This document shows positions 2,661 to 61,113 of a stretch of DNA of 64,000 bases, piece after piece (position 1 is the stretch's first letter; each line of letters begins with the position of its first letter). Below the pieces are notes generated by a model that was not told the DNA's origin, ran no database searches, and saw only the letters and a program-made list of their open reading frames with translations. Source of the DNA: Anaerolineales bacterium. Lineage in GTDB: Bacteria; Chloroflexota; Anaerolineae; Anaerolineales; E44-bin32. The translations under genes were made by a program, and so were the position numbers. Where the stretch lies: contig DAOULU010000037.1 of assembly GCA_034417075.1 (NCBI GenBank), positions 41,915 through 105,914 on the forward strand, given 5' to 3'.

Positions 2661-2713
2661 CGGGGCGAAGAGGTCACGATCATGAATCGAGCCGAGGAAG
2701 ACCAGCTATAAAA

Positions 2714-4312: not shown

Positions 4313-4365
4313 AAATGGCTTTTTACTCACGACAAAGGTCATGTAAAGAGGTTGTATAACAGGCG

Positions 4366-5364: not shown

Positions 5365-5404
5365 GTCAACGCTGCTTGAGGAGGAAATTACGCAGAATGC
5401 CGGG

Positions 5405-5413
5405 TGTTATAAT
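5405..5413 (+). promoter_or_regulatory. Extended -10 promoter element (TGTTATAAT) upstream of the SDR-neuA-neuB genes
   Basis: Perfect TGn-TATAAT in the intergenic gap 5365-5542. Confidence 0.5.
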
Positions 5414-5542
5414 CTTCGAACTGTTTTCCAGTCGAGTAGCTTGAAAGAGCGGTTTGATGGACAGGATAAACTCATATGAATGGCTCGATGTTGAAAAAAC
5501 GAGGACAGGGGAATCAATTTGCCTCCCAGCGGGTGGTGACGA

Positions 5543-6364
5543 ATGAGTGAGTTGCCCGCATCCTTCGATCTGTCCGGGAAAGTGGCCGTCGTTACCGGTT
5601 CCGCCGGATTGCTCGGATCCGGTTTTTGCCACACACTGGCCGAAGCGGGTGCGACGGTGGTCCTGGCAGACAACAACGTCGGGGCGAACGAAAATCTGGC
5701 GGATAAGCTGGGCGAGGCAGGTTTCGCCGTTCTCGCTGTGAAATGCGACATCACCGATCCCCATTCAGTCGAAGCGCTGGTGCAGCAGACGCTGCAGCGC
5801 TATGGTCGTCTCGATATCCTGGTCAACAGCGCCGCACTGGATCCCAAATTCGACCCGGAACATCAGGACGAGCACTCCAGCAGCTTCGAGAAGTACGCGC
5901 TCGAGGATTGGAACCAGGCATTGAACGTCAACCTGACCGGGATGTTTTTGGTCACACAGGCAGTTGTCCGGCCGATGCTCGATCAGCGGGATGGCGCAAT
6001 CGTCAACATCTGTTCGACCTACGGGCTCGTGGCGCCGGATCAACGCATCTACCAGCGAGAAGGCCGAGCGCAGGGGTACAAACCGGTATATTACTCGGTC
6101 ACGAAAGCCGGGGTATTGGGTTTCACGCGCTACCTGGCGGGCTACTACGCTGGCAAGAACATCCGCGTCAACGCGCTGACGCCCGGCGGCGTGTACAACC
6201 AGCACGATGAGGCTTTTGTCGAGCAGTACGCCGCACGGACGATGTTGGGACGGATGGCAGACCGTTCGGAAATGAATTCGGCGCTGCTTTTCCTGGCGTC
6301 CGACGCTTCATCGTACATGACGGGTGCGAACTTGGTCGTCGATGGGGGTTGGACGGCATGGTGA
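5543..6364 (+). CDS. SDR oxidoreductase (PtmA/ElaC-like, NulO-cluster associated)
   Basis: TGSAGLLG, NSAA, YSVTK catalytic YxxxK, IRVNALTPGGV, NLVVDGG. Overlaps the neuA start. Confidence 0.85.
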   Translation: MSELPASFDLSGKVAVVTGSAGLLGSGFCHTLAEAGATVVLADNNVGANENLADKLGEAGFAVLAVKCDITDPHSVEALVQQTLQRYGRLDILVNSAALDPKFDPEHQDEHSSSFEKYALEDWNQALNVNLTGMFLVTQAVVRPMLDQRDGAIVNICSTYGLVAPDQRIYQREGRAQGYKPVYYSVTKAGVLGFTRYLAGYYAGKNIRVNALTPGGVYNQHDEAFVEQYAARTMLGRMADRSEMNSALLFLASDASSYMTGANLVVDGGWTAW

Positions 6365-7587
6365 ATAAAGCGGAAGTTTTAGCGATCGTCCCTGCACGGG
6401 CGGGCTCGAAATCCATACCGAAGAAGAACGTACGTCTCTTTGCCGGGCACCCTCTGCTCGCCTACAGCATCGCTGCGGGTCTGCAAGCGGAATATGTTTC
6501 GCGCGTGATCGTCTCCACGGACGACGAAGATTTTGCCGAGATCGCCCGCAGTTACGGGGCGGAAGTTCCTTTTCTGCGGCCGGCGAAGTTCGCTGGTGAT
6601 AACGTCACCGATCTGCCGGTCTTCGAGCATGCCTTGAATTGGTTGCAGGAGGAGGAAAACTACCGGCCGGATGTGGTCGTACAGCTGCGGCCGACGTCTC
6701 CCATTCGCCCGCGCGATTGTGTGGACCGGGCGGTTGAAATCTTGCTCGAAAATCCTCGGGCGGACTCCGTGCGTGGGGTCGTCCCTTCCGGCCAGAATCC
6801 GTACAAAATGTGGCGCTTGACGGACAACGGCGTCATGGAAACTCTGCTGAAGGATGCTGGCGAGGAATCCTACAACAAACCGCGTCAGGAGCTTCCATCG
6901 ACCTACTGGCAGACCGGCCACATCGACGCCATCCGCACAGAGACGATACTCGAGAAGAAATCGATAAGCGGGGATACGATCCTACCGTTGCTGCTCGATG
7001 CAAAGTACACCGTCGACATCGACACGCTCGAAGACTGGCGGCGGGCGGAATACACCTTGATGCACGGCGATCTCGAAGCAGTCTTTCCCGGCCGCAAACC
7101 GAGGCCCTTCCCTCCGACTGTAACCATGGTCGTCATGGATTTCGACGGCGTGTTGACCGACAACCGGGTCTGGGTGGATGGTGAGGGCAACGAGTGGGTG
7201 GCGGCCAATCGTGGGGACGGCTGGGGAATCGCACGTTTGAAAGAGCGTGGCGTTCAGGTCGTCGTTCTCTCGACGGAATCTCACCCTGTGGTGACTGCAC
7301 GCTGCCGCAAACTCGGCATTAATGTGAAGCAGAATCTCGCCGACAAAGCATCTGCCATGAGGGCACTGCTCGAAGAGAGCGGCGTGGATCCTGCGGAGGT
7401 GGTTTTCCTGGGGAACGATGTAAACGACGTCGCCTGTTTTCCGCTCGTGGCATGCGCACTCGCTGTCTCCGATGCCCACACTGACGCTCGTCGGGCGGCG
7501 GACCTGGTGCTCCAGAACCCCGGCGGACACGGGGCTGTGCGAGAACTCTGCGACATGGTGATCCATCAGATGGATGAGGTGTCTTGA
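6358..7587 (+). CDS. neuA: Acylneuraminate cytidylyltransferase fused to a C-terminal KdsC-like HAD phosphatase
   Basis: PARAGSKSIPKKN, QLRPTSP. C-terminal MDFDGVLTD (HAD motif I), LSTE, FLGNDVND, GGHGAVRE. Confidence 0.9.
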   Translation: MVNKAEVLAIVPARAGSKSIPKKNVRLFAGHPLLAYSIAAGLQAEYVSRVIVSTDDEDFAEIARSYGAEVPFLRPAKFAGDNVTDLPVFEHALNWLQEEENYRPDVVVQLRPTSPIRPRDCVDRAVEILLENPRADSVRGVVPSGQNPYKMWRLTDNGVMETLLKDAGEESYNKPRQELPSTYWQTGHIDAIRTETILEKKSISGDTILPLLLDAKYTVDIDTLEDWRRAEYTLMHGDLEAVFPGRKPRPFPPTVTMVVMDFDGVLTDNRVWVDGEGNEWVAANRGDGWGIARLKERGVQVVVLSTESHPVVTARCRKLGINVKQNLADKASAMRALLEESGVDPAEVVFLGNDVNDVACFPLVACALAVSDAHTDARRAADLVLQNPGGHGAVRELCDMVIHQMDEVS

Positions 7588-7588
7588 T

Positions 7589-8464
7589 ATGCCCAGAGAG
7601 ATACGGATTGGCAAGCGGCACATCGGTGAAGGTTATCCGACCTACATCGTGTCGGAAATCGGCATCAACCACAACGGCGAACTTTCCACCACCAAGGCGC
7701 TGATCGACGCCGCGAAGAATGCCGGCGTGGATGCGGTTAAATTCCAGAAGCGCACACCGGATTTATGCGTTCCTGCGGAGCAGCGGGATCAGATGCGAGA
7801 CACGCCATGGGGATATATCTCGTATCTCGATTACCGCCATCGGATTGAATTCGACGAAGAAGAATACCGCGAGATCGACTCCTATTGTAAATCTCTCGAT
7901 CTCACCTGGTTCGCCTCGGCTTGGGATGAACCTTCGGTGGATTTTCTGGAAAAGTTCGACCCCGTTTGTATCAAAATCCCTTCCGCGGCGTTGACCGACC
8001 ACGCGCTTTTAAAACACATCCGGAAAGCCGCCAAACCGGTGATCTTGTCGACCGGGATGTCCACGATGGAGCAGATTCAAGCCGCCGTCGATGTCCTGGG
8101 CACGGATGATTTACTCATCACGCACGCCACGAGTTCCTATCCCTGTGATCCGAACGATCTGAATTTGAAAGTGATCCCGGCGCTTCTGGATGCTTTTCCC
8201 TGTCCGATCGGTTATTCCGGACACGAAGTGGGCTTGGTGCCGTCTGTGGTGGCCGTGGCCATGGGCGCTTGTTTGGTCGAGCGGCACATCACGCTGGATC
8301 GGGCCATGTGGGGATCCGACCAGGCGGCTTCCGTCGAACCGGGTGGGTTTCGGCGGCTGGTCAAATACATCCGCGTCACTGAGGAAGCCCTTGGGGATGG
8401 GGTTAAACGGGTGTATGACAGTGAATTGACCTCCATGCAGAAACTGCGGCGCGTCGGTGGTTAA
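7589..8464 (+). CDS. neuB: N-acetylneuraminate/KDN-9-phosphate synthase family protein (no C-terminal SAF/AFP domain)
   Basis: EIGINHNG, VKFQKRTP, HATSSYP, IGYSGHE, VERHITLD, GSDQAAS. Ends shortly after the TIM barrel. Confidence 0.9.
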   Translation: MPREIRIGKRHIGEGYPTYIVSEIGINHNGELSTTKALIDAAKNAGVDAVKFQKRTPDLCVPAEQRDQMRDTPWGYISYLDYRHRIEFDEEEYREIDSYCKSLDLTWFASAWDEPSVDFLEKFDPVCIKIPSAALTDHALLKHIRKAAKPVILSTGMSTMEQIQAAVDVLGTDDLLITHATSSYPCDPNDLNLKVIPALLDAFPCPIGYSGHEVGLVPSVVAVAMGACLVERHITLDRAMWGSDQAASVEPGGFRRLVKYIRVTEEALGDGVKRVYDSELTSMQKLRRVGG

Positions 8465-10114
8465 ATGAGTCTTCCTTTTCGTTGGCTGCGATCGGCGGCC
8501 TTTCAACTTCGCTGTTGGATAGAATCCATTCGTCAAGGGCCAAGGCTTCGGCAATTGCGAAGCGAAATTGAAGCATCGGCGTCTGGCGATGAGAGCGACA
8601 ATCGCCCCGTGCTCTTCTTCAATGCTTCGACGCGAACGTGGGGGGTGAGTCAGAACGCGGCGTTCAGCTTGTTGGCATCCTGGGGATTTCGTTTAAGCGG
8701 TGTATCGGTCCGCTATTTAGCCTGCATGCGCGGCATGCAGCAGTGCATGCTAGGTACCAATCGTAAGCGCCTGGGTGCAGTGCCTCCGTGTAAATCCTGC
8801 ATGCGCCTCAGCAGACAAATGTATCCAGAGGATCTACTCGATAAGATCGAGGCTCCCAGCAAGGGATGGAACACACTGCCCGATTTCTCCGAACACGGGA
8901 CACTCGCATCTCTATTCGAAGTGGAATATCTCGGATTGAAAATCGGTGAACTTTGTCTGCCCTCTCTGCGCTGGGTGCTGCGTAGGCATAACATTCCCGA
9001 CACCGCGGAAATTCGTGCCTTGTACAAGAAATATCTTCGCTCTGCAATCCATGTCGCGCTGGTTTTTATACAGACCATTGAACGAACGCCACCACGAGCT
9101 GTTATCGTATTTAACGGAATCACATTCCCGGAAGCGGTCGTGCGTCAAATCGCCATCGAACGAGGAATTCCCGTTATCACCCACGAGGTGGGGGTACGAC
9201 CGTTTTCCGCTTTTTTTACTCACGGTGAAGCGACGGCGTACCCTATTGAAATAGCGGATGATTTCCGCCTAATGCCTGAAGAACATGCTCGTCTGGAAGC
9301 TCTCCTTTCCGCTCGATTCCAGGGCGATTTTTCGATGGCGGGGATCCGTTTTTGGCCAGAAATGCGCGCTTTGAGCGAAACATTGAAGGCAAAGTTGGAG
9401 AGCTATGATCAGTGTGTAGCCGTGTTTACAAACGTAATATTCGATACGAGCCAAGTGCATGCGAATGTGATTTTCGATGACATGTTTGCCTGGTTGGAGC
9501 AGGTCGTCCATTTCGCGGGGAGGCATCCTCGTACGCTGTTCGTCATCCGTGCCCATCCCGATGAACTGCGCACTGGAAAAGAAGCACATGAAACTGTCGC
9601 AGAAGTGCTCTCACAAACGAATGCTGCTGCGATGGAGAACGTGGTATTTATCCCTTCGCAAGAGTTCGTGAGTTCGTACGATTTGATTCGGCGCTCCAAA
9701 CTCGTGATGGTCTATAATTCATCCATCGGGTTGGAGGCCACACTGCTTAAGCGTGTTGTTTTGTGTGGTGGGGCTTCAAGATATTCTCGTTATCCAACGG
9801 TGTATTTTCCGGAAACGGCGCAGATATATTTCCAAATGGCAGATAAATTCATTCATGAGGACGATCCCAAACCGCCACAATCGTTCGTCGATGAGGCTGA
9901 GCGTTTCTACTACGTCCAGCATTTTCTGACTTCACTGGATTATTCACCTTATTTACGTCCCCACAAAACATTCCCGGGATACGTTACTTTCTCGGATTTT
10001 GATGTAAACATGCTGCATCCGATTCATTGCCGTGAGAATGCGATCATCGAGCGTGGCATTCAGTCCAATACGGAAATGTTTTACGATCGAAGTGATGTCA
10101 CTGTTAAAAGTTGA
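8465..10114 (+). CDS. KpsS/KpsC-like capsule-synthesis protein (candidate ulosonic-acid transferase)
   Basis: FVIRAHPDE and VYNSSIGLEA motifs typical of Capsule_synth proteins. Directly abuts neuB. Confidence 0.65.
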   Translation: MSLPFRWLRSAAFQLRCWIESIRQGPRLRQLRSEIEASASGDESDNRPVLFFNASTRTWGVSQNAAFSLLASWGFRLSGVSVRYLACMRGMQQCMLGTNRKRLGAVPPCKSCMRLSRQMYPEDLLDKIEAPSKGWNTLPDFSEHGTLASLFEVEYLGLKIGELCLPSLRWVLRRHNIPDTAEIRALYKKYLRSAIHVALVFIQTIERTPPRAVIVFNGITFPEAVVRQIAIERGIPVITHEVGVRPFSAFFTHGEATAYPIEIADDFRLMPEEHARLEALLSARFQGDFSMAGIRFWPEMRALSETLKAKLESYDQCVAVFTNVIFDTSQVHANVIFDDMFAWLEQVVHFAGRHPRTLFVIRAHPDELRTGKEAHETVAEVLSQTNAAAMENVVFIPSQEFVSSYDLIRRSKLVMVYNSSIGLEATLLKRVVLCGGASRYSRYPTVYFPETAQIYFQMADKFIHEDDPKPPQSFVDEAERFYYVQHFLTSLDYSPYLRPHKTFPGYVTFSDFDVNMLHPIHCRENAIIERGIQSNTEMFYDRSDVTVKS

Positions 10115-10212
10115 TCTGAAACGAACGGGAACGGACGGGACGTATGAGGAGCTCCGTGTGTGTTAGTATTGCTGGTCTCGTTCGCTGAAAGTACAGCATA
10201 CTGCAAGGTGAG

Positions 10213-11037
10213 ATGGCCGTGATCTCCATAAAGCAATTCATCAAAAGGATGACACCCACCGCGCTGTGGCGCCCGATTTCCAACCTGTACTGGTACTGGT
10301 ACAACCGTGGACGCCATCAGTTGGCCGCGGCGGTCAGCGTTCGCCGCCGGAAGGATGCGGGACGCTTGCGGTCGTTTCATGATCAATATTCGGGGCGGCG
10401 CTGCTTTGTGATTGGAAACGGGCCCAGCCTGCGCGAGACCGATCTGAGTTTTCTGCGCGACGAAATTACCTTCGGCGCGAATCGCCTCTATCTGAACTTT
10501 CCCGAGATGGGCTTCACGAGCACCTTTCTGGTGATCACCAACATCCTCGTCGTCGAACAATGTGCCCGCGATTTGAAGGCCTTGACCATCCCGAAGTTCA
10601 TCACCTGGCGCGCCAGAAAGTGGATGAAGGACGATGCGCGCACGATATTCCTGGATACCGATTACACCCTGCCCGAAACGTTCGCGCAGGACGTTTCCGG
10701 AAGGGTGTACGAAGGAAACACGGTGACGTACACATCGCTCCAATTAGCCTATCACATGGGGTTTTCGAAAGTGATCCTCATCGGCGTGGATCATCATTAC
10801 GACACGAAAGGTCCTGCGAATACGGTCGTGGTTTCGCAAGGGGAGGACCCCAATCACTTTCATCCCGATTATTTCGGCAAGGGCTTTCGTTGGCAGCTTC
10901 CCGATCTGGTCGGTTCCGAGCGGGCTTACAAAATGGCCGGGGAGAACTTCGCCCGAGATGGTCGAGAAATCCTCGACGCCACCATCGACGGCCGGCTGAC
11001 GATCTTCCCCAAGGTAAAATATGAAGATCTATTTTAA
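10213..11037 (+). CDS. DUF115/MAF_flag10 (MptE-like) protein, candidate NulO transferase
   Basis: CFVIGNGPSL, FGANR, GNTVTYTSLQLAYHMGFSKVILIGVDH, PNHFHPDYFG. Confidence 0.75.
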   Translation: MAVISIKQFIKRMTPTALWRPISNLYWYWYNRGRHQLAAAVSVRRRKDAGRLRSFHDQYSGRRCFVIGNGPSLRETDLSFLRDEITFGANRLYLNFPEMGFTSTFLVITNILVVEQCARDLKALTIPKFITWRARKWMKDDARTIFLDTDYTLPETFAQDVSGRVYEGNTVTYTSLQLAYHMGFSKVILIGVDHHYDTKGPANTVVVSQGEDPNHFHPDYFGKGFRWQLPDLVGSERAYKMAGENFARDGREILDATIDGRLTIFPKVKYEDLF

Positions 11038-11094
11038 CTTCGATCGTTTAACACGTCTGGCGCTCGTAAGATTTCAACCGGGGCGGGAAGCGTA

Positions 11095-12048
11095 ATGACC
11101 GAAAACCATCCGCGATGTTCGATCGTCATCCGCGCCTTTAATGAGGAGAAACATATCGGGCGTTTGCTCACCGGCATCATGCACCAGACCGCCGAAAAAG
11201 TAGAAATCGTCCTGGTCGACTCCGGCTCGCGCGACGCAACGGTGGCAATCGCTTCCCGTTATCCGGTCAAGATCGTGCACATCCGGCCCGAGGAATTTAC
11301 TTTCGGGCGTTCCCTCAATCGCGGTATCGAGCATACGACTTCGGAATTCGTCGTCATCGCCAGCGCTCACGTGTATCCCGTATTTCCGGATTGGCTGGAA
11401 AGACTGTTGGCGCCGTTCGAAAATCCACGCGTCGCAATGGTCTATGGCAAGCAGCGCGGCATTGAGTCCACTCACTTCAGCGAGCAGCAGCATTTTGCCA
11501 AGTTGTTCCCGGCTGAAAGCATCGCCGTCCAACGTCATCCGTTCTGCAACAACGCCAATTCGGTCGTTCGCCGATCGTTGTGGCTCCAGAACCGTTTCGA
11601 CGAGGAGTTGACCGGTCTGGAAGACATGGCCTGGGCAAATTGGGCCATCCAGCAGAATCACGTTTTGTCCTATGCGGCGGAGGCGGAAGTGATTCACGTG
11701 CATAATGAAACCTCACGCCAGGTTTACAACCGCTACCGGCGGGAGGCGATCGCCTTGCGGCGGATCAAAGTGGAGGAACGTTTCCACCTCGGAGATTTCC
11801 TGCGTCTATATCTCTCGAACGTGATGAGCGACGGGTGGCACGCGCTGCGTGAGCGGGTGTTCTTGAGGGAAGCGCGCGGCATTCTCAGATACCGTCTCAT
11901 GCAGTTTTGGGGTACGTATCGCGGTTTTTCGTTATCTAAGCCCGTGTCGGCTTCCATGAAGCAGGTTTTCTATTACCCGCGCGGTTTTCGTGCTGCCACC
12001 ATCAAGCCGCAGCGGGATGTAGAGCCGATCGATTATCAGAGCGTTTGA
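11095..12048 (+). CDS. GT2 glycosyltransferase
   Basis: SIVIRAFNEE, VLVDSGSRD, FCNNANS, LEDMAWA. The DXD position is degenerate (IASAH). Confidence 0.85.
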   Translation: MTENHPRCSIVIRAFNEEKHIGRLLTGIMHQTAEKVEIVLVDSGSRDATVAIASRYPVKIVHIRPEEFTFGRSLNRGIEHTTSEFVVIASAHVYPVFPDWLERLLAPFENPRVAMVYGKQRGIESTHFSEQQHFAKLFPAESIAVQRHPFCNNANSVVRRSLWLQNRFDEELTGLEDMAWANWAIQQNHVLSYAAEAEVIHVHNETSRQVYNRYRREAIALRRIKVEERFHLGDFLRLYLSNVMSDGWHALRERVFLREARGILRYRLMQFWGTYRGFSLSKPVSASMKQVFYYPRGFRAATIKPQRDVEPIDYQSV

Positions 12049-12129
12049 CGGCCGGATGACTACTCCGGCCTGGTCGTTCGCCGCCTGGGTCGATAAAATC
12101 AGGGCAGTTGAGGTTAAGGATCGCAGAAC

Positions 12130-12828
12130 ATGATGGCTGAAGAGAAAATTGTGGCCCTGGTTCCGATGCGGCATCATTCGGAACGAGTGCCCGAGAAAAA
12201 TTTCCGCCTTTTGGCCGGAAAGCCGCTCTACGCTCACATTCTCGAGACGCTGCACGCGTGTCCCGAAATTGGGCAAATTCTCGTCGATACCGACAGCCCG
12301 GTAATCGTCAGCGGGATTGCGGAACGATTTCCGGATGTTCTACTCATCGATCGCCCGGAGCACCTGCGGGCCGATGATGTGCCGATGAACGACGTGCTGC
12401 TTCATGATGTTTCGCAATGTGAGGCGGAGTTTTATCTTCAGACCCACAGCACCAATCCTTTGCTGCGTGCAAGGACCATTTCGGATGCAATTACGACCTT
12501 CAGAAAGGGTCTCCCGCAGCACGATTCGCTTTTTTCCGTTACCAGGTTGCAGACGCGTCTCTGGGACGTCGATGGAAAACCCATCAACCACGATCCGTCT
12601 GTTTTACTGCGAACACAGGACCTCACACCAGTGTACGAAGAAAATTCCTGCATATACATCTTTCAACGATCCATCTTCATCGATCGTGAGAACCGAATTG
12701 GTCACACGCCAACGATGTTCGAAATCGACGGCGAAGAAGCATGGGACATCGATGAGGAACTCGATTTCTTGATTGCGGACCGTTTGATGCAGGAACGATT
12801 ACGTTCACAATCGGAGAAGAACAAATGA
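12130..12828 (+). CDS. Second acylneuraminate/CMP-Kdo-type cytidylyltransferase
   Basis: VPMRHHSERVPEKNFR, THSTNPLL, YEENSCIYIF, WDIDEELDF. Confidence 0.85.
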   Translation: MMAEEKIVALVPMRHHSERVPEKNFRLLAGKPLYAHILETLHACPEIGQILVDTDSPVIVSGIAERFPDVLLIDRPEHLRADDVPMNDVLLHDVSQCEAEFYLQTHSTNPLLRARTISDAITTFRKGLPQHDSLFSVTRLQTRLWDVDGKPINHDPSVLLRTQDLTPVYEENSCIYIFQRSIFIDRENRIGHTPTMFEIDGEEAWDIDEELDFLIADRLMQERLRSQSEKNK

Positions 12829-13790
12829 CGATCCGCGTACTCGTATCCGCGCCCTACATGCTCCCACACCTCGATCGTTTCAGGCCGATTTTCGAACGAA
12901 GCGGCATCGAACTAGTGACCCCCGAAGTCGTTGAACGTCTCTCGGAAGAGGAGCTGCTCCAACTGGTCGGAGAGATCGATGGGGCGATTTGCGGTGATGA
13001 TCGCTTCACGCCTCGGGTGCTGCAAGCGGCCGTGCCCCGCCTGAAAGTCATCTCGAAGTGGGGAACGGGGATCGATTCGATCGACAAGCAAGCGGCGCAG
13101 CAGCTCGGCATCCGGGTTTATAACACCCCGGGCGCTTTCGCGGATCCGGTCTCGGACACCGTCATGGGCTACGTCCTCAACTTTGCCCGCCGGCTGCCTT
13201 GGATGGATCGAAACATGAAGCAGGGCAAATGGGAAAAGCTGCCGGCGAGATCGCTGCGAGAATGTGTGTTAGGCGTGGTGGGAGTGGGCAACTGCGGCAA
13301 AGCCGTACTGCGGCGAGCGCGGGGATTCGGTATGGGTTTGCTGGGGAACGACATCCTGGAAATTCCACAGGCGTTCATCGATGAGGTGGGCGTGACGATG
13401 ATGGATCTCGAAGCGTTGCTGCCCCAGGTGGATTTCCTGAGCTTGAACTGCGACCTGAATCCGACTTCGTTCCATTTGCTGACCCGGGAGCGGTTACGGC
13501 TTCTGCCCTCCACCGCCGTCGTGATCAACACCTCGCGCGGCCCGGTGATCGACGAGCAGGCGTTGGTCGAGGCGCTGCGTGAAGGATGGATCAGCGGCGC
13601 CGCATTGGACGTTTTCGAGGATGAACCCCTGGCGGCGGATCATCCGCTGCGTTCGATGGATCAGGTGATGCTGGGATCTCACAATGCAAACAGCAGTCTT
13701 GCCGCCTGGGAGCGGGTGCATAAAAATACGATCCGCAATCTCTTCGAGGGACTGGGGATTTCACCGCCGGAAGACCTGGATCGGATTTGA
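12825..13790 (+). CDS. D-isomer-specific 2-hydroxyacid dehydrogenase (phosphoglycerate dehydrogenase-like)
   Basis: KWGTGIDSID, GVVGVGNCG, INTSRG, AALDVFEDEP, LGSHNA. ATGA overlap with the upstream gene. Confidence 0.85.
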   Translation: MTIRVLVSAPYMLPHLDRFRPIFERSGIELVTPEVVERLSEEELLQLVGEIDGAICGDDRFTPRVLQAAVPRLKVISKWGTGIDSIDKQAAQQLGIRVYNTPGAFADPVSDTVMGYVLNFARRLPWMDRNMKQGKWEKLPARSLRECVLGVVGVGNCGKAVLRRARGFGMGLLGNDILEIPQAFIDEVGVTMMDLEALLPQVDFLSLNCDLNPTSFHLLTRERLRLLPSTAVVINTSRGPVIDEQALVEALREGWISGAALDVFEDEPLAADHPLRSMDQVMLGSHNANSSLAAWERVHKNTIRNLFEGLGISPPEDLDRI

Positions 13791-13819
13791 GGTGAACCGG
13801 GTATGAAAAGGAGAACCCT

Positions 13820-14566
13820 ATGAAGCGCGTGGCGATCATCACAGGCGCAGCAGGCGGTATCGGCCGGGCAACGGCAGAAACGTTCCACGCTGCCGGATAT
13901 GAAGCGGTCGGCATCGATCGCAAAGAAGTGAAAGACTTCCCGGACGACATTCGCCTGTATAAAGTCGACTCATCCTTGGAAGAAAGCGTCTCGGCGTTTG
14001 CCGTACGCATGCGCGAGCAGCATCAGAAGATCGATGTGCTGGTCAACAATGCCGCAATCCAAATCTGCAAACCCATCGTCGAGATGACGGTAGAAGAATG
14101 GGATGCCACGATGGCATCGAATCTGCGCTCGATCTTTCTCATGAGCCGCGAATTGTATCCGCTGATCAAGGCGGCAAGGGGTTCGATCGTCAACGTAAGC
14201 TCCGTCCACGCCATGGCGACGTCGAACGACATCGCCGCCTACGCGGCCAGCAAAGGCGGTATCCTGGCGCTGACCCGTGCGATGGCGCTCGAATTCGGAC
14301 TCGATGACGTGCGCGTGAATACGATCCTGCCCGGTGCGGTAGATACGCCCATGCTGCGGGACGGTATGAGCCGCGGGCATGTTTCCGGAACGCTGGAAGA
14401 GCGCATGCAAGCGTTGGCGGCAAAAACGGTTTTGGGGCGAATCGGTAAACCGGAGGAAATCGCGAAAGTCATCCTCTTCTTGGCGGATGGCGGGCAATCC
14501 GGATTCATGACCGGACAGTCACTGATTGTGGATGGCGGCGCTTCGGCAAGATTGAGCACGGAGTGA
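13820..14566 (+). CDS. SDR oxidoreductase
   Basis: TGAAGGIG, VNNAA, NVSS, YAASK, VRVNTILPG, LIVDGG. Confidence 0.9.
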   Translation: MKRVAIITGAAGGIGRATAETFHAAGYEAVGIDRKEVKDFPDDIRLYKVDSSLEESVSAFAVRMREQHQKIDVLVNNAAIQICKPIVEMTVEEWDATMASNLRSIFLMSRELYPLIKAARGSIVNVSSVHAMATSNDIAAYAASKGGILALTRAMALEFGLDDVRVNTILPGAVDTPMLRDGMSRGHVSGTLEERMQALAAKTVLGRIGKPEEIAKVILFLADGGQSGFMTGQSLIVDGGASARLSTE

Positions 14567-14599
14567 TATTGTAGAGGTTTTTTTCCTCAGGAGGTTTTA

Positions 14600-16528
14600 T
14601 TGCTACTTGGATTATTGCCCCTTGCGGGATGGATAGGCTTGGTTTTTCTACTGGAGAATCTGCAAACCGATTCGAGTTGGCGCAGGGCTTGCTTGCATGC
14701 GGGGGTCTTGTGGGGAAGCTACATCGTTTTCCTGAACGAGTTACTGAGCATCTGGAAGGCCATCACGCTCGTTGGATTGGTCATCGCCTGGTCTCTGCCA
14801 CTATTAGGCATCGCCGTGTTTCTCGTCGTGCGGGTACGGCACGGCCATGAGATTCGCCTCCCCAGTTCGGAATGGCCGAAGGGATGGTCGCAGGTTTTTC
14901 TATTTGTCGGTGTTGTCCTTATATTAATTGTCACGGGAATTCTGGCCTGGTTGTCCCCACCACAGACGTGGGACACGCTAAATTATCACATGCCAAAAGT
15001 CGCCCAATGGGCGCAAAATCAGTCCGTCCAACATTACACGACGGGGATCAAACCCCAGAACTACATGTCTCCGGGAATGGAATACGTGGTGCTTCATTTT
15101 TACATCCTGGCCGGGAGCGATCACTTGGTAACGCTGGTAAGTTGGTTCTTTGTCTTGGGCAGCATCATTGGGGTTTCTTATCTCGCTTTACGCTTCGGCC
15201 TGAGGACAACAGCACAGCTCTTCAGCATGCTGTTTACGGCCACACTTCCATTGGCCATCGTTCAAGCCTCCGGCACGATGACCGATTGCGCCGTCGCCTT
15301 CTGGATGATCGTCGTGGCAGCTGAAGCCGTTACGGTGATGAAGAATGAGGACGATATTTGGACCATCCTTATTCTCGGTTTATCGGCCGGCCTTGCCATC
15401 CTGACAAAACCCACCGGCTATGCCTTCACTTTGCCATTCACTATCCTAGTCGCAATCACACTTCTTCGACGCAGGAATTTTAAACGCTTTCTACAATCTA
15501 CCCTTCTTGCTGTTTTACTTTTCGCGCTGCTCAATGCCGGGCATCTTTACCGTAACCAATTACGCTACGGCAACCCCTTTGGACCTCCTGGCCGCATTTC
15601 CGCCTTGATCACCGATGATATCAATCTGCCTATCATCGTCTCCAACACCTTACGCAATGCGAGTCTCCATGCCGGGACACCCTCTCCCTACGTCAACAAA
15701 GGAATCTATCTGTTCGTTGAAAAGGTTCACCAACTTATCGGCGTCGATATCATGGATTCCAGAACCACGCACAGTAGACGTTATAAGGTATTTCCTCCCT
15801 CGACTCACGAAGATTTAACCTCCAACCCCTTGCACGCGTTGTTGATCTTAATCGTGTTTTTCGTTTCGATTTGGCGGAGGAAAAGCATACCCAGGGAGGT
15901 ATTCGCATACGGGCTGGCCGTGGCTTGCTCGTTTGTATTGGTGAGTTCGATGGTCCAATGGCAGCTGTACAACGCCCGCCTTCACCAGCCATTTTTCGTG
16001 ATGGCCGCGCCATGGGCGGTATTCATGCTCTACGACATCCTATCGCAGCGGTTGATAAACATCGTGGCCGTCGTTTTACTTGCGGCCTCCTGGCCGTGGC
16101 TGGTTCACATTCCCTCGCGGCCGATTATCGAGCAGCAAGGTAAATCCTACGTCGACAGTGTTTTTCACGAATCGAGATTCAACCTGTATTACGCCGACGG
16201 TGGTCATCTCAAGGTGCCGCATCTCGAGATCACGGAGCGTATTCAGGAATCGCAGTGTTCGCGGGTTGGATTGGTGCTGACGGGAAACGAGGCCGAATAC
16301 CCGATTTGGGTGCTGCTCGGTGCGCCAAAAGATGCTCCGCGGATCGAGTGGGTGATCGATGACAAGTATGTCGATGACAGCGAAGGTATGGATTTTCAGC
16401 CCTGCGCTGTAATCCTGCAGCCATGTGCGGAGGATTGGGGAATGTTTAACGGGCTGCCGCGCGTGTACGAACATAAACCGACTCATTATTGCTTATTTCT
16501 GGCCTCCGGGCTTCAAGAAAATCCGTGA
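14600..16528 (+). CDS. GT-C-like polytopic membrane glycosyltransferase
   Basis: TTG start after GAGG. Many TM helices, first-loop WDTLNYH, LTKPTG, soluble C-terminus. Confidence 0.65.
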   Translation: MLLGLLPLAGWIGLVFLLENLQTDSSWRRACLHAGVLWGSYIVFLNELLSIWKAITLVGLVIAWSLPLLGIAVFLVVRVRHGHEIRLPSSEWPKGWSQVFLFVGVVLILIVTGILAWLSPPQTWDTLNYHMPKVAQWAQNQSVQHYTTGIKPQNYMSPGMEYVVLHFYILAGSDHLVTLVSWFFVLGSIIGVSYLALRFGLRTTAQLFSMLFTATLPLAIVQASGTMTDCAVAFWMIVVAAEAVTVMKNEDDIWTILILGLSAGLAILTKPTGYAFTLPFTILVAITLLRRRNFKRFLQSTLLAVLLFALLNAGHLYRNQLRYGNPFGPPGRISALITDDINLPIIVSNTLRNASLHAGTPSPYVNKGIYLFVEKVHQLIGVDIMDSRTTHSRRYKVFPPSTHEDLTSNPLHALLILIVFFVSIWRRKSIPREVFAYGLAVACSFVLVSSMVQWQLYNARLHQPFFVMAAPWAVFMLYDILSQRLINIVAVVLLAASWPWLVHIPSRPIIEQQGKSYVDSVFHESRFNLYYADGGHLKVPHLEITERIQESQCSRVGLVLTGNEAEYPIWVLLGAPKDAPRIEWVIDDKYVDDSEGMDFQPCAVILQPCAEDWGMFNGLPRVYEHKPTHYCLFLASGLQENP

Positions 16529-16543
16529 TCGATCGACGGGCGG

Positions 16544-16552
16544 TGCTATAAT
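16544..16552 (+). promoter_or_regulatory. Extended -10 promoter element (TGCTATAAT) upstream of the GT2 at 16668
   Basis: Perfect TGn-TATAAT immediately after the upstream stop codon. Confidence 0.5.
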
Positions 16553-16667
16553 TTGTCCCTGGATGGTCGATCCCTTCGATGAATGATAATTCTATGACGT
16601 ATGGATGTTTGTTGAAGAGGCATTCGATTTCAGAGCCCTCATTGATGATATTCATGAGTTCAAGACC

Positions 16668-17675: not shown

Positions 17676-17738
17676 CCGGTGGCGGAGTCGGCAATGGATG
17701 GCATCTCAAAACCCAACCACCGCTGAAGTCGCGCGCAA

Positions 17739-25915: not shown

Positions 25916-27661
<1,746 letters not shown>

Positions 27662-47124: not shown

Positions 47125-47143
47125 TCCGGCGCGCCAAAGGGAT

Positions 47144-61104: not shown

Positions 61105-61113
61105 CGTTCATTC

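What the first reader, a model, noticed from the sequence alone, without database searches (positions are those of the whole stretch)
11095..14566. Orphan CMP-activation cassette (GT2, cytidylyltransferase, D-2-hydroxyacid dehydrogenase, SDR) with no synthase
Seen: a second NeuA/KdsB-type enzyme translationally coupled (ATGA) to a 2-hydroxyacid dehydrogenase, then an SDR. No second NeuB, KdsA or aldolase is in the window. Known: this cytidylyltransferase family activates the anomeric OH of 2-keto acids. Inference: a PEP-independent route in which the SDR oxidises an aldose or polyol, the 2-hydroxyacid dehydrogenase makes a 2-keto-aldonate, and CMP activates it. That would give a non-3-deoxy ulosonic acid donor. 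Alternatively, the cassette further remodels the NeuB product. I know of no characterised pathway with exactly this trio.
Basis: inference. Interest (0 to 1): 0.7.

Follow-up and report, generated by a model that had tools for sequence, protein, structure and literature searches.

The report
Synthase-less CMP-sugar-acid cassette, widely conserved
Four adjacent genes, conserved in hundreds of Anaerolineae species and on plasmids of cultured marine bacteria, seem to build and attach a CMP-activated sugar acid with no gene for the usual carbon-carbon bond-forming synthase, which points to an undescribed route to this class of cell-surface sugars.

Summary
GT2 (11095-12048), a NeuA/KdsB-fold cytidylyltransferase "CT2" (12130-12828), a D-2-hydroxyacid dehydrogenase "HADH_B" (12825-13790, ATGA overlap with CT2) and a classical SDR "SDR2" (13820-14566) form one operon-like block. 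The only NeuB/KdsA/aldolase gene in the 64 kb window, or in the roughly 9 kb of flanking contig examined, is the upstream NeuB (7574-8464).

The block recurs. At least 580 GTDB species genomes, the 80 best all Chloroflexota and mostly Anaerolineae, carry CT2 orthologues, nearly always followed by HADH_B, SDR2 and an MptE-like (Maf-type) transferase. Related GT2-CT-HADH_B cassettes lie on plasmids of cultured Thalassovita, Sulfitobacter and Gemmobacter.

CT2 belongs to an uncharacterised clade of about 270 clusters. Elsewhere this clade is linked, and sometimes fused, to pyruvate aldolases (HpcH/HpaI, or DmpG-like) plus a HAD phosphatase and a different HADH subfamily. In the aldolase-free form, CT is found naturally fused to HADH_B, to SDR2 or to GT2. 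Two Roseobacter versions add an SDR plus SMP-30 lactonase pair.

HADH_B is not a plain SerA. It is unproven; remodelling of the NeuB product is the main rival. I found no literature on this cassette.

The parts
11095..12048 (+). GT2-family glycosyltransferase (317 aa), first gene of the cassette
   Evidence: Pfam PF00535, 86 bits; no NCBIfam model reaches its cut-off. It lies directly upstream of CT2 in 32 of 72 Anaerolineae loci, and also in L148, L163, L165 and the Thalassovita, Sulfitobacter and Gemmobacter plasmids at 40-60% identity. Natural GT2-CT and CT-GT2 fusions exist: P0342, P0479, P0347.
12130..12828 (+). CT2: cytidylyltransferase of the NeuA/KdsB fold, in a distinct uncharacterised clade; predicted CMP-ulosonic-acid synthetase
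   Evidence: PF02348, 90 bits. Below every equivalog cut-off: PseF 72 against 205.7, KdsB at most 33 against 193-281. The AF2 model (pLDDT 86.9) best matches CMP-Neu5Ac, CMP-Kdn and CMP-Pse synthetases, TM 0.72-0.80 at 19-26% identity. R14, S17, K23, N24 and D206-x-D208 align with catalytic residues of N. meningitidis CSS. The clade motifs LQTHSTNPLL, FSVTRxQxR and NHxP...EENSxxY are shared with aldolase-linked relatives but not with NeuA1.
12825..13790 (+). HADH_B: D-isomer-specific 2-hydroxyacid dehydrogenase of a cassette-specific subfamily, translationally coupled to CT2
   Evidence: PF02826 and PF00389. ATGA overlap with CT2. Best PDB match is 1wwk, a short PGDH, at 1.6e-59; the catalytic Arg/Glu/His are kept. 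Signature: C-GDD, ISKWGTG, V[AS]D, PHNxNSS, EPLxxxSPL. This signature is shared by all aldolase-free cassettes and differs from PGDH and from HADH_A. At least 12 cluster representatives are fusions with CT.
13820..14566 (+). SDR2: classical short-chain dehydrogenase (248 aa)
   Evidence: adh_short_C2, 186 bits. The NCBIfam matches are generic (SDR, BudC, aldose and glucose 1-dehydrogenase) and all below cut-off. Best PDB match is BacC, 5itv. Present in 52 of 57 Anaerolineae loci with at least 6 kb downstream. The Roseobacter plasmid SDRs paired with an SMP-30 lactonase are closer to SDR2 (36-39%) than to SDR1. Eleven CT-SDR2 fusion clusters.
10213..11037 (+). MptE-like (Maf-type) protein, candidate transferase for the CT2 product
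   Evidence: PF01973, 46 bits against a 34.6 cut-off. It follows SDR2 in 47 of 57 Anaerolineae loci, whereas here it precedes GT2. It is 39% identical to the MptE-like gene that sits between CT and the aldolase in L091. Several MptE-like genes flank the Roseobacter cassettes. Maf proteins transfer nonulosonic acids and Kdo (PMC11339370). No PDB sequence match.
14600..16528 (+). Conserved 642-aa protein of unknown function, possibly a GT-C membrane glycosyltransferase, downstream partner of the cassette
   Evidence: No Pfam family in my scan; a weak PMT_2 hit is on record for the contig's gene call. Orthologues lie after HADH_B or SDR2 in L007-L010, L139, L172 and L175 at 47-77% identity.
4366..10114 (+). 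Neighbouring module 1: GFO/IDH/MocA (4366-5364), PtmA-like SDR (5543-6364), NeuA-KdsC fusion (6349-7587), short NeuB (7574-8464) and a Capsule_synth/BFO_1060-like transferase (8465-10114). It is a separate, self-sufficient CMP-nonulosonate branch.
   Evidence: Pfam and NCBIfam. It has the same composition as the ElaA/ElaC/ElaB CMP-legionaminic acid C8-epimerase module (PMC13656337). It is upstream of the cassette in 29 of 46 loci, with CapS at the locus edge in 5 more, but absent within 9-10 kb in 12.

Best explanation
The four genes are the aldolase-free ('type B') form of a widespread, uncharacterised pathway that makes and installs a second CMP-activated 2-ulosonic (alpha-keto sugar) acid on a cell-surface glycan. 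This branch is separate from the NeuB/NeuA branch next door.

Proposed steps:
1. SDR2 oxidises a preformed sugar at C1 to the lactone, which opens to the aldonic acid. Opening is spontaneous here. Roseobacter relatives have an SMP-30 lactonase for it, and some type B relatives have a PF04199 hydrolase that may do the same job.
2. HADH_B oxidises the 2-hydroxy acid to the 2-oxo acid, which cyclises.
3. CT2 joins CMP to the anomeric C2 hydroxyl.
4. The MptE-like (Maf-type) protein, the GT2, or both, transfer the residue. The downstream membrane proteins assemble the polymer.

Shown: gene content, domain families, the fold of CT2 and the conservation of its nucleotide/Mg residues, conservation of the cassette, fusions, absence of a synthase from the locus, and HADH_B as a distinct non-SerA subfamily.

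Inferred: every substrate, the order of steps 1 and 2, and the identity of the transferase.
For: 1. Functional unit. CT2-HADH_B-SDR2 is kept in nearly every sufficiently long locus of 80 Chloroflexota (mostly Anaerolineae) species genomes: HADH_B in 71 of 74, SDR2 in 52 of 57, MptE-like in 47 of 57. GT2-CT-HADH_B(-SDR2) also occurs in distant metagenome loci L148, L163 and L165 and on Thalassovita, Sulfitobacter, Gemmobacter and Pararhizobium plasmids.

2. Fusions. CT-HADH_B (at least 12 clusters), CT-SDR2 (11) and GT2-CT (3) occur as single polypeptides. These enzymes therefore act on neighbouring steps.

3. Chemistry. The reaction typical of the 2-HADH family is 2-hydroxy acid to 2-oxo acid (own knowledge; formate and phosphite dehydrogenases are the known exceptions). 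A CMP-ulosonate has no oxidisable C2-H. HADH_B should therefore act before CT2 and produce the 2-oxo acid that CT2 needs (inference). This fits the ATGA coupling.

4. Lactonase. Two Roseobacter plasmids carry an SDR2-like SDR and an SMP-30/gluconolactonase; in Thalassovita the two genes overlap by 4 nt. This is the same pair as aldose dehydrogenase and lactonase (XylB/XylC) in oxidative pentose catabolism (own knowledge). L148, L163 and L116 have a PF04199 hydrolase beside the CT.

5. No synthase is needed in cis. No aldolase, NeuB or KdsA lies within about 8-10 kb in L043, L077, L053, L148, L165 or the Sulfitobacter and Gemmobacter loci. 12 of 46 Anaerolineae loci have no NeuB or CapS upstream. 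Aldolase orthologues are rare in Anaerolineae: about 10 clusters at 76% identity or more, against more than 120 CT2 clusters at 61% or more and at least 580 species.

6. Independent of NeuB. Anaerolineae bacterium SM23_63 has the NeuB module and, in the same locus, an aldolase-based set feeding a CT of this clade. The cassette is also equally conserved beside two different NeuB types.

7. HADH_B is not SerA.

8. CT2 has the CMP-sialate synthetase fold and its nucleotide/Mg residues.
Against: - No substrate is known for any protein of this clade.
- In most relatives (24 of 28 informative loci) the same CT clade is linked to a pyruvate aldolase, and in P0345 it is fused to a second, unrelated pyruvate aldolase type. 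This implies a 3-deoxy (4-hydroxy-2-oxo) acid. Sugar-pocket motifs are conserved between aldolase-linked and aldolase-free CTs. A 3-hydroxy 2-keto-aldonate product would therefore require either that the aldolases use hydroxypyruvate or that the CTs tolerate both.
- The window and all Anaerolineae loci lack a lactonase.
- SDR2 has no specific similarity to aldose 1-dehydrogenases.
- HADH_B persists next to a complete aldolase set in SM23_63-type loci, where an aldonate oxidase would seem redundant.
- A PEP-dependent synthase module is adjacent in most Anaerolineae and in Thalassovita (kpsF-kdsB-kdsA-SDR-SMP30).
- 2-HADH enzymes usually run in the reductive direction in vivo (own knowledge).
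Confidence: 0.4

Rival explanations
1. The cassette remodels the product of the neighbouring PEP-dependent synthase. Free KDN-like acid from NeuB plus the KdsC domain (Kdo from KdsA in Proteobacteria) is converted by SDR2 and HADH_B through oxidation and reduction (epimerisation or a keto intermediate). This would parallel ElaA/ElaC acting on CMP-legionaminic acid. CT2 then activates the new isomer and the MptE-like enzyme transfers it.
For: A NeuB module lies within 10 kb upstream in 29 of 46 Anaerolineae loci, with CapS at the locus edge in 5 more. In Thalassovita the SDR and lactonase sit in one run with kpsF-kdsB-kdsA. There is a precedent for a cytidylyltransferase with two NAD(P) oxidoreductases, ElaABC (PMC13656337). 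The CT clade's usual aldolase partners imply a 3-deoxy acid, which NeuB or KdsA also makes. All Proteobacteria carrying the cassette make Kdo anyway (own knowledge).
Against: A 2-HADH has no obvious substrate on a 3-deoxy-2-ulosonic acid except reducing its C2 keto group, which would destroy the CT substrate (inference). A second cytidylyltransferase would be unnecessary if tailoring took place on the CMP-sugar. SM23_63 and L090 carry both a NeuB module and a separate aldolase set for this CT clade, so the two branches are independent there. 12 of 46 loci, and also L148, L165, Sulfitobacter and Gemmobacter, lack an adjacent synthase. The cassette is unchanged beside two different NeuB types.
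Confidence: 0.22
2. The pathway is the ordinary aldolase-based one of this CT clade: pyruvate plus an aldehyde or aldose phosphate, then a phosphatase, tailoring and CMP activation. In Anaerolineae the aldolase and phosphatase are simply encoded elsewhere in the genome.
For: 24 of 28 informative CT-clade loci carry an HpcH aldolase, 25 of 28 carry a 2-HADH, and most carry a HAD. CT-aldolase, HAD-CT and DmpG-like-aldolase-CT fusions exist. CT pocket motifs are conserved between the two cassette types. The hybrid SM23_63 locus shows that HADH_B can work alongside the aldolase set.
Against: Only 1 of 80 Chloroflexota loci (L062, probably Dehalococcoidia) has the aldolase within 10 kb. The approximately 73 kb of the window's contig that I examined holds none. 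Aldolase orthologues named as Anaerolineae are few and fall to cross-phylum identity levels after about 10 clusters. Type B also replaces HADH_A with HADH_B and the extended SDR with a classical SDR; this looks like a different route, not a scattered one.
Confidence: 0.12
3. HADH_B, with or without SDR2, does not build the sugar. It makes a small hydroxy acid (D-glycerate or D-lactate from hydroxypyruvate or pyruvate) that decorates the glycan, while CT2 activates an ulosonic acid obtained from elsewhere.
For: HADH_B scores best against glyoxylate/hydroxypyruvate reductase and PGDH models. Glyceroyl- and glycerate-type substituents on nonulosonic acids are known in Tannerella and Campylobacter (own knowledge). 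The locus is rich in decorating enzymes: methyltransferases, sulfotransferases and sulfatase-like transferases.
Against: The locus has no ligase, acyltransferase or kinase to attach such an acid. CT-HADH_B fusions and the ATGA coupling argue for consecutive steps.
Confidence: 0.08

Closest known systems
CMP-sialic acid, CMP-Kdn, CMP-Pse and CMP-Kdo synthetases (NeuA, PseF, LegF, KdsB; Pfam PF02348)
   Same: Same fold: the AF2 model aligns with 6ifd, 9t4z, 1eyr, 9ftc and 1h6j at TM 0.70-0.80. Same P-loop Arg/Lys and D-x-D metal site. Same genomic role next to glycosyltransferases.
   Different: Only 19-26% identical to any solved member and 26% to the NeuA in the same locus. It fails all NCBIfam equivalog cut-offs. 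It has its own motif set (QTHSTNPLL, FSVTRxQxR, EENSxxY). The Arg aligned with the meningococcal carboxylate-binding Arg165 is not conserved in the clade. The clade is never linked to its own NeuB or KdsA; it is linked to pyruvate aldolases or to HADH_B plus an SDR.
ElaA/ElaB/ElaC (also PtmF/PtmA/PtmB): cytidylyltransferase plus GFO/IDH/MocA oxidase plus SDR reductase for C8 epimerisation of CMP-legionaminic acid (PMC13656337)
   Same: A trio of one CTP_transf_3 enzyme and two NAD(P)-dependent oxidoreductases of different folds in a surface-glycan locus. The window's upstream trio at 4366-7587 has exactly this composition.
   Different: In the cassette the GFO/IDH/MocA enzyme is replaced by a 2-hydroxyacid dehydrogenase, whose chemistry needs a free 2-hydroxy or 2-oxo acid and cannot act on a CMP-ketoside. 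The Ela pathway starts from a NeuB-type synthase (LgaD, the V. vulnificus Nab2 homologue); this cassette has none.
Kdo pathway: KdsD isomerase, KdsA synthase, KdsC phosphatase, KdsB cytidylyltransferase
   Same: The aldolase-linked relatives of the cassette mirror it step by step: a SIS isomerase (in SM23_63), a C-C bond-forming enzyme, a HAD phosphatase and a cytidylyltransferase.
   Different: Class II pyruvate aldolases (HpcH/HpaI or DmpG-like) replace the PEP-dependent KdsA, so these relatives are PEP-independent. A 2-HADH is almost always added. The window's version has no C-C bond-forming step at all.
Oxidative (non-phosphorylative) sugar pathways: SDR aldose 1-dehydrogenase plus SMP-30 lactonase (for example Caulobacter XylB/XylC), and 2-ketogluconate reductases of the 2-HADH family (TkrA/GhrB, 9m0t)
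   Same: The enzyme families are those needed for aldose to lactone to aldonate to 2-keto-aldonate. An SDR plus SMP-30 pair accompanies the Roseobacter cassettes. A 2-ketogluconate reductase is among the better PDB matches of HADH_B, at 6e-43.
   Different: Those pathways are catabolic and end in dehydratases or kinases, not in CMP activation. The window has no lactonase. SDR2 is not specifically similar to known aldose dehydrogenases.
Bcs1/TarI-TarJ: reductase plus cytidylyltransferase for CDP-ribitol (own knowledge)
   Same: A dehydrogenase/reductase is fused or coupled to a cytidylyltransferase, so that the redox product is activated at once. The CT-SDR2 and CT-HADH_B fusions have this logic.
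   Different: A different cytidylyltransferase family (IspD-like), a phosphate nucleophile giving a CDP-alditol, and no carboxylic acid.

Membership tests
CMP-ulosonic acid synthetase superfamily (Pfam CTP_transf_3, PF02348) | Sequence match to the family model above the gathering score | tested here: met
   90.3 bits against a cut-off of 22.6, covering 205 of 217 model positions.
CMP-ulosonic acid synthetase superfamily (Pfam CTP_transf_3, PF02348) | NeuA/KdsB fold with an inserted dimerisation subdomain | tested here: met
   AF2 model with pLDDT 86.9 and pTM 0.85. The top 27 Foldseek PDB matches are all CMP-Neu5Ac, CMP-Kdn, CMP-Pse or CMP-Kdo synthetases or an unassigned cytidylyltransferase (3oam), at E 1e-20 to 1e-13 and TM 0.64-0.80.
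CMP-ulosonic acid synthetase superfamily (Pfam CTP_transf_3, PF02348) | CTP-binding P-loop Arg/Lys and the D-x-D metal site | tested here: met
   R14, S17, K23, N24 and D206/D208 are invariant in 24 orthologues. They align with R12, S15, K21, N22 and D209/D211 of N. meningitidis CSS.
CMP-ulosonic acid synthetase superfamily (Pfam CTP_transf_3, PF02348) | CTP-dependent formation of a CMP-ketoside from a 2-ulosonic acid | not testable with these tools
   Needs an enzyme assay.
Specific equivalogs: PseF, KdsB | Score above the NCBIfam equivalog cut-off | tested here: not met
   PseF 72 bits against 205.7; KdsB models 24-33 bits against 193-281. 19-26% identity to solved NeuA, Kdn, Pse and Kdo enzymes.
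D-3-phosphoglycerate dehydrogenase (SerA) | Score above the PGDH equivalog cut-off | tested here: not met
   TIGR01327: 180 bits against 454. PRK11790: 128 against 404.
D-3-phosphoglycerate dehydrogenase (SerA) | Anion (phosphate)-binding Arg-Ser motif and Arg of the 'RAG' loop | tested here: not met
   HADH_B has C-GDD where 1wwk has VRSK, and S-K-W-G where 1wwk has A-R-A-G. This holds in at least 95% of 79 orthologues. The assignment of these motifs to phosphate binding rests on my own knowledge of PGDH structures.
D-isomer-specific 2-hydroxyacid dehydrogenase family | Both domains, and the catalytic Arg-Glu-His triad | tested here: met
   PF02826 at 177 bits and PF00389 at 61 bits. NTSRG, DVFE-EP and PHN align with the catalytic residues of 1wwk and the glyoxylate reductases.
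ElaABC/PtmFAB-type CMP-nonulosonate epimerase module | CTP_transf_3 plus a GFO/IDH/MocA oxidoreductase plus an SDR, downstream of a NeuB-type synthase | tested here: not met
   The cassette has a 2-HADH in place of GFO/IDH/MocA and no synthase of its own. The neighbouring trio at 4366-7587 does fit.
PEP-dependent ulosonic acid pathways (NeuB/KdsA type) | A dedicated PEP-condensing synthase linked to the cytidylyltransferase | tested here: not met
   None in the cassette. Across 28 informative loci of the CT clade, NeuB was found in 0 and an HpcH aldolase in 24.
Aldolase-linked ('type A') cassette of the same CT clade | HpcH/HpaI aldolase, HADH_A, HAD phosphatase and an extended SDR next to the CT | tested here: not met
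   No aldolase or free-standing HAD in the window or its flanks. The window's HADH is 31-35% identical to HADH_A members, which share 39-54% among themselves.
Oxidative aldose front end (aldose 1-dehydrogenase plus lactonase) | An SDR dehydrogenase paired with a lactonase | tested here: inconclusive
   The SDR is present. There is no lactonase in the window or in any Anaerolineae locus, but an SMP-30 lactonase lies with an SDR2-like SDR on two Roseobacter plasmids.
Maf/MptE-like glycosyltransferases (PF01973) | MptE-like domain above the gathering score, encoded next to a CMP-sugar synthetase | tested here: met
   46 bits against 34.6. It is linked to the CT clade in both cassette types. Transferase activity was not tested.

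The most novel reading that the evidence does not exclude
The cassette makes a new class of nucleotide sugar: a CMP-activated non-3-deoxy 2-ulosonic acid (a 2-keto-aldonic acid such as a hex-2-ulosonate). It would be formed without any C-C bond formation, by aldose to aldonate to 2-keto-aldonate oxidation. The sister aldolase cassettes would reach the same class of acid by condensing hydroxypyruvate (from the PGDH-like HADH_A plus the HAD phosphatase) with an aldehyde. Such residues would then be common but overlooked acid-labile components of the envelopes of Anaerolineae, roseobacters and some archaea.
Probability: 0.3. Interest if true: 0.85.

Novelty: new variant of a known kind. Interest (0 to 1): 0.66.

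Why it matters
All characterised CMP-activated sugar acids (Kdo, sialic, legionaminic and pseudaminic acids, KDN) are built by PEP-dependent KdsA/NeuB synthases. This cytidylyltransferase clade has about 270 clusters at 50% identity, and at least 580 GTDB species genomes carry a close relative. It is never tied to its own PEP-dependent synthase. It is tied either to pyruvate aldolases or, as here, to two dehydrogenases only.

Either version would be an undescribed, PEP-independent route to an alpha-keto sugar donor, and probably to one or more undescribed surface sugars. The organisms concerned are abundant in wastewater sludge, sediments and marine plankton (own knowledge).

The question is directly testable. 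The same cassette sits on plasmids of cultured Thalassovita gelatinovora, Sulfitobacter sp. D7 and Gemmobacter fulvus, and in the genome of cultured Bellilinea caldifistulae GOMI-1 (and in an Anaerolinea thermophila MAG). Natural CT-HADH and CT-SDR fusion proteins offer ready-made two-step enzymes for assays.

Tried and rejected
- **Plain SerA.** Rejected: HADH_B is below the PGDH cut-offs, lacks the anion motif and is locked into the glycan operon.
- **The aldolase replaces NeuB as an alternative synthase for one shared pathway.** Rejected: Anaerolineae bacterium SM23_63 and L090 carry both.
- **A variable NeuB type proves independence of the cassette.** Weakened: both NeuB types lack amino-sugar genes nearby and may make similar KDN-like acids.
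- **Carboxylate-binding Arg161 as proof of a keto-acid substrate.** Dropped: the residue is Gln in the Roseobacter CTs and Pro in L090.
- **Gln104 equivalence with meningococcal Gln104.** Left out: HMMER and MAFFT align this loop differently.
- **Literature.** Searches for the trio, for an aldolase plus cytidylyltransferase, and for Anaerolineae nonulosonic acids found nothing relevant. The only chemical precedent found for a six-carbon 2-ulosonic acid in a glycan is the 4-deoxy-2-hexulosonic acid of E. coli K3, whose genes were still unassigned as of the 2023 paper I read.
- **E. coli and Enterobacter plasmid matches** (30-32% identity). These belong to a different cytidylyltransferase lineage, one that sits beside a NeuB-family gene.
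- **Sequence search of the MptE-like protein against the PDB.** Nothing found.
- **NCBIfam.** No specific model for any type A protein.
- **Promoter and terminator scan of 4000-17800.** No more sites than in shuffled sequence and no clear intergenic signal.
- **Look-up of the leftmost window ORF.** Failed because the gene starts outside the window.
- **One Pfam call** failed on a wrong reading frame.

Full report
**1. What is in the window**

The stretch 11095-14566 holds four co-directional ORFs at exactly the coordinates given:
- a GT2 glycosyltransferase (317 aa);
- a CTP_transf_3 cytidylyltransferase, called CT2 here (232 aa);
- a D-isomer-specific 2-hydroxyacid dehydrogenase, called HADH_B here (321 aa);
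- a classical short-chain dehydrogenase, called SDR2 here (248 aa).

All four are well above Pfam gathering scores. The CT2 stop and the HADH_B start overlap as ATGA at 12825-12828. The other gaps are 29-81 bp. The gene calls on the source contig (Logan SRR14802572_16118, 107.5 kb) give the same four products.

The block lies inside a surface-glycan region of about 55 kb. Directly upstream are:
- a GFO/IDH/MocA oxidoreductase (4366-5364);
- a PtmA-like SDR (5543-6364);
- a NeuA-KdsC fusion (6349-7587);
- a short NeuB without a SAF domain (7574-8464);
- a Capsule_synth/BFO_1060-like transferase (8465-10114);
- an MptE-like protein (10213-11037).

Downstream are a 642-aa protein of unknown function, further GT2s, an LPG_synthase_TM protein and a PMT_2 protein. 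I put 51 large ORFs of the window through Pfam. There is no second NeuB, no KdsA and no aldolase. tblastn with an HpcH aldolase found nothing in the window. The extra 5.6 kb and 3.6 kb of the contig on either side also hold none.

**2. The cytidylyltransferase**

CT2 is 26% identical to the NeuA in the same locus. It falls far below every NCBIfam equivalog cut-off: PseF 72 bits against 205.7, KdsB at most 33 bits against 193 or more.

An AlphaFold2 model built on 24 orthologues (pLDDT 86.9) is most similar to:
- CMP-Neu5Ac synthetases (6ifd, 1eyr, 1qwj);
- a CMP-Kdn synthetase (9t4z);
- a CMP-Pse synthetase (9ftc);
- less closely, KdsB.

TM-scores are 0.70-0.80 at 16-26% identity. The P-loop residues R14, S17, K23 and N24 and the D206-x-D208 metal site are invariant. 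They align with the catalytic residues of the meningococcal enzyme. CT2 therefore has the fold and nucleotide/Mg residues of a CMP-ulosonate synthetase, but belongs to none of the characterised groups. A full HMMER scan of 1.84 billion cluster representatives found 270 clusters at E 1e-30 or better.

**3. How widely the cassette occurs**

I scanned one genome per GTDB species. At least 580 stretches encode a close relative. The 80 best are all Chloroflexota, most labelled Anaerolineae or Anaerolineales. They include cultured Bellilinea caldifistulae GOMI-1 and an Anaerolinea thermophila MAG. Counts below are from tblastn with the window's proteins.

| Loci considered | Feature | Count |
|---|---|---|
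| at least 1.2 kb downstream of CT2 (74) | HADH_B follows CT2 | 71 |
| same 74 | HADH_B within 200 bp | 49 |
| at least 6 kb downstream (57) | SDR2 present | 52 |
| same 57 | MptE-like gene present | 47 |
| at least 1.2 kb upstream (72) | GT2 directly upstream | 32 |
| at least 9 kb upstream (46) | NeuB module inside the locus | 29 |
| same 46 | only its CapS gene, at the locus edge | 5 |
| same 46 | neither | 12 |

Where HADH_B is not adjacent to CT2, sulfatase-like membrane genes are usually inserted between them. In L043 the operon starts at CT2, after tRNA and rRNA modification genes on the other strand. In L053 it follows a histidine kinase. Only one of the 80 loci (L062) has an aldolase.

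**4. The sister cassette with an aldolase**

In L062 a CT that is 64% identical to CT2 is followed by an HpcH/HpaI aldolase, a 2-HADH, a HAD phosphatase and an extended SDR. I followed that aldolase into other genomes. I then surveyed metagenome contigs with a CT profile. This 'type A' arrangement turns out to be the common one for the clade.

Of 28 loci with at least 3 kb on both sides:
- 24 have the aldolase;
- 25 have a 2-HADH;
- most have a HAD and an extended SDR or a GFO enzyme, and many a PF04199 'cyclase' hydrolase;
- none has a NeuB.

Type A occurs in:
- Methanococcoides, next to AglB/STT3;
- Candidatus Desulfaltia, as CT, MptE-like, aldolase, methyltransferase, HADH, epimerase, cyclase, HAD;
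- Dehalococcoidia;
- a plasmid of cultured Acuticoccus.

Type A CTs are about 50% identical to CT2. They share the clade-specific motifs PM[RK]xHSERVPxKN, LQTHSTNPLL, DSLFSVTRxQxR, NHxPxxLLxTQxLxPxxEENSxxY and DIDE, which NeuA1 lacks. The two cassette types therefore probably activate the same or closely similar acids.

Their dehydrogenases differ. Type A HADHs ('HADH_A') are 39-54% identical to each other but only 31-35% to the window's enzyme.

| Feature | HADH_A | HADH_B |
|---|---|---|
| First loop | AG.E | GDD |
| Gly-rich loop | SR.G.G | [KR]WG.G.D |
| Next motif | VAEL | V[AS]D |
| C-terminal motif | EPY..GPL | EPLxxxSPL |
| His motif | H.G.Y | HN..N[ST] |

**5. Type B outside Chloroflexota, and hybrids**

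Aldolase-free cassettes with HADH_B also occur elsewhere:
- metagenome loci L148 and L163: GT2, PF04199 hydrolase, CT, HADH_B, SDR2, MptE-like;
- metagenome locus L165: GT2, CT, HADH_B, SDR2;
- plasmids of cultured Alphaproteobacteria, described next.

Thalassovita gelatinovora pAge77 carries rfbCBDA, kpsF, kdsB, kdsA, an SDR, an SMP-30/gluconolactonase (overlapping the SDR by 4 nt) and an MptE-like gene. A few genes later come GT2, CT, HADH_B, GalE and two MptE-like genes. Sulfitobacter sp. D7 p4SUD7 has an SMP-30 protein, the SDR (on the opposite strand), and GT2, CT, HADH_B, GalE and an MptE-like gene. Gemmobacter fulvus p5 has an MptE-like gene, GT2, CT, HADH_B and another MptE-like gene. 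The plasmid SDRs are closer to SDR2 (36-39%) than to the window's other SDR.

A hybrid exists in Anaerolineae bacterium SM23_63 (L172, and also L139 and L175). It is collinear with the window from the methyltransferase through GFO, SDR1, NeuA-KdsC, NeuB and CapS to the MptE-like gene. Next it carries an HpcH aldolase, HADH_A, a GFO enzyme, a methyltransferase, a SIS_2 isomerase and a HAD. Then come a CT (55% identical to CT2 in L139) and HADH_B (65-67%). It has no GT2 and no SDR2. Two conclusions follow. The NeuB branch and the branch of this CT clade are independent, because both are complete in one locus. The aldolase set looks like a pyruvate-dependent copy of the Kdo pathway (isomerase, condensing enzyme, phosphatase, cytidylyltransferase).

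Orthologues of this aldolase are rare in Anaerolineae. There are about 10 clusters at 76% identity or more, and below that the matches are at cross-phylum levels. CT2, by contrast, has more than 120 clusters at 61% or more and at least 580 species. This argues against a hidden aldolase elsewhere in typical type B genomes, though it does not exclude an unrelated aldolase family.

**6. Fusions**

38 of the 150 best cluster representatives are 300 aa or longer. Most of them are CT fusions:
- CT-HADH_B in at least 11 clusters, plus one HADH_B-CT;
- CT-SDR2 in 11;
- GT2-CT or CT-GT2 in 3;
- CT-HpcH aldolase in 1;
- HAD-CT in 1;
- P0345, a DmpG/HMGL-type 'putative aldolase' (best PDB match 3dxi, 2e-41) fused to a CT.

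They also show that two unrelated pyruvate aldolase families have been recruited to this CT clade.

**7. How it most likely works**

What follows is inference.

The reaction typical of the 2-HADH family is interconversion of a 2-hydroxy acid and a 2-oxo acid (own knowledge). A CMP-ketoside has no hydrogen on C2. HADH_B should therefore act on the free acid, before CT2. The simplest role that explains its coupling and fusion to CT is to create the 2-oxo group that CT2 then activates.

SDR2 would supply the 2-hydroxy acid by oxidising an aldose to its lactone. The SDR plus SMP-30 lactonase pair in the Roseobacter cassettes is the classical aldose dehydrogenase and lactonase pair. The PF04199 hydrolase in L148, L163 and L116 could play the lactonase role there.

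It uses only the canonical chemistry of each family, and it explains why type B needs no synthase. I give it 0.40.

Its main difficulty is that the same CT clade is normally fed by pyruvate aldolases. Their products are 3-deoxy, and the CT pocket motifs are conserved between the two types. The two could be reconciled if the aldolases use hydroxypyruvate, made by the PGDH-like HADH_A and the HAD from 3-phosphoglycerate. That would also explain why a 2-HADH is nearly universal in type A. It is speculation, and the DmpG-like fusion does not favour it.

The rivals are:
- remodelling of the NeuB or KdsA product by oxidation and reduction, as ElaA/ElaC do on CMP-legionaminic acid (PMC13656337): 0.22;
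- an aldolase encoded elsewhere: 0.12;
- HADH_B making a glycerate or lactate substituent: 0.08.

The remainder is for routes I have not thought of.

**8. Comparison with what is known, and novelty**

The upstream trio (GFO/IDH/MocA, SDR, NeuA) with NeuB is an ordinary ElaABC/PtmFAB-type module with a KDN-like, phosphatase-coupled synthase. The cassette of the finding is not a member of that family, because a 2-HADH replaces the GFO enzyme and it has no synthase. It is not a member of the Kdo or NulO PEP-dependent pathways. Its dehydrogenase is not a SerA.

It is a member of the CTP_transf_3 superfamily at fold and catalytic-residue level only. Eight full-text literature searches, six of them aimed at the trio, its aldolase-linked relatives or Anaerolineae nonulosonic acids, found nothing on either. 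NCBIfam has no specific model for any component.

I class it as a new variant of a known kind: CMP-activated alpha-keto sugar acid pathways. There is a realistic chance, about 0.3, that the product is a new class of donor.

**9. Verdict**

The finding is real, non-trivial and far more widespread than a single window suggests. The 'orphan, synthase-less CMP-activation cassette' is right. The PEP-independent reading is right for the clade as a whole: pyruvate aldolases in type A, no condensing enzyme in type B. The specific redox route is the best available hypothesis but is untested. Cultured hosts and natural bifunctional fusions make it directly testable. Interest 0.66.

Noticed in passing
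window 4366-8464: The upstream GFO/IDH/MocA, PtmA-like SDR and NeuA trio has the same composition as ElaA/ElaC/ElaB, the CMP-legionaminic acid C8 epimerase module. Here it is combined with a NeuA-KdsC phosphatase fusion and a short NeuB without a SAF domain. That suggests a KDN-like acid made from a sugar phosphate and then epimerised as the CMP-sugar.
   Followed up: partly
L184 916-1677 (about 4.0-4.7 kb left of window position 1, same contig): A third CTP_transf_3 gene (253 aa, about 20-29% identical to CT2-clade CTs and NeuA1 over partial alignments). It follows a Peptidase_M28/DUF4910/DUF2172 protein and precedes a GT2, a methyltransferase and a PIG-L deacetylase. The locus therefore encodes three cytidylyltransferases of this family.
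   Followed up: partly
window 25916-27661, 39581-40831 (-); L005 108-1901 and 8121-8996: A fused ATP-sulfurylase/APS kinase and sulfotransferases lie in the same glycan region, and also in related loci. The polymer is probably sulfated.
   Followed up: no
window 2627-4312; L050, L070, L081, L031: Sulfatase-like (LtaS/EptA-type) membrane proteins of about 530-560 aa. In some relatives up to five or six tandem paralogues are inserted between CT2, HADH_B and SDR2, splitting the cassette.
   Followed up: no
window 30069-53958: A second, partly divergently oriented polysaccharide locus. It holds an ABC-2 transporter pair, a DegT aminotransferase, a GNAT, six GT4 glycosyltransferases, Wzy_C, Bac_transf and Polysacc_synt_2. 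Part of it has lower G+C (0.40-0.47) than the ulosonate region (0.52-0.58).
   Followed up: no
L062 14056-18463: In a Chloroflexota MAG whose aldolase is 89% identical to one from a Dehalococcoidia MAG, the type A cassette is followed by LicD, a PEP mutase fused to a CTP_transf_like domain, a TPP decarboxylase and an Fe-ADH. This is a phosphonate (2-HEP/AEP-type) decoration pathway.
   Followed up: no
L089 14191-16647: In Methanococcoides the aldolase-type cassette lies beside AglB (STT3). This suggests that the unknown CMP-sugar acid enters an archaeal N-glycan.
   Followed up: no
L178 (E. coli plasmid NZ_CP145673.1, record 46806-49716): A kps-type capsule cluster on an IncX1/IncY plasmid carries a 'hypothetical' cytidylyltransferase (30% identical to CT2), an inositol monophosphatase-family protein and a 514-aa NeuB-family protein. 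This is a different, also unassigned, ulosonate module.
   Followed up: no
P0013 (alignment, columns 140-200): One CT2 orthologue (297 aa) contains an internal tandem duplication of about 65 residues spanning the QTHSTNPLL motif. It is probably an assembly or gene-call artefact.
   Followed up: no
window 59986-62133 (-): Two adjacent FemAB-family genes, next to a PALP enzyme and a GAF-PAS-nucleotide cyclase. They are unrelated to the glycan locus.
   Followed up: no
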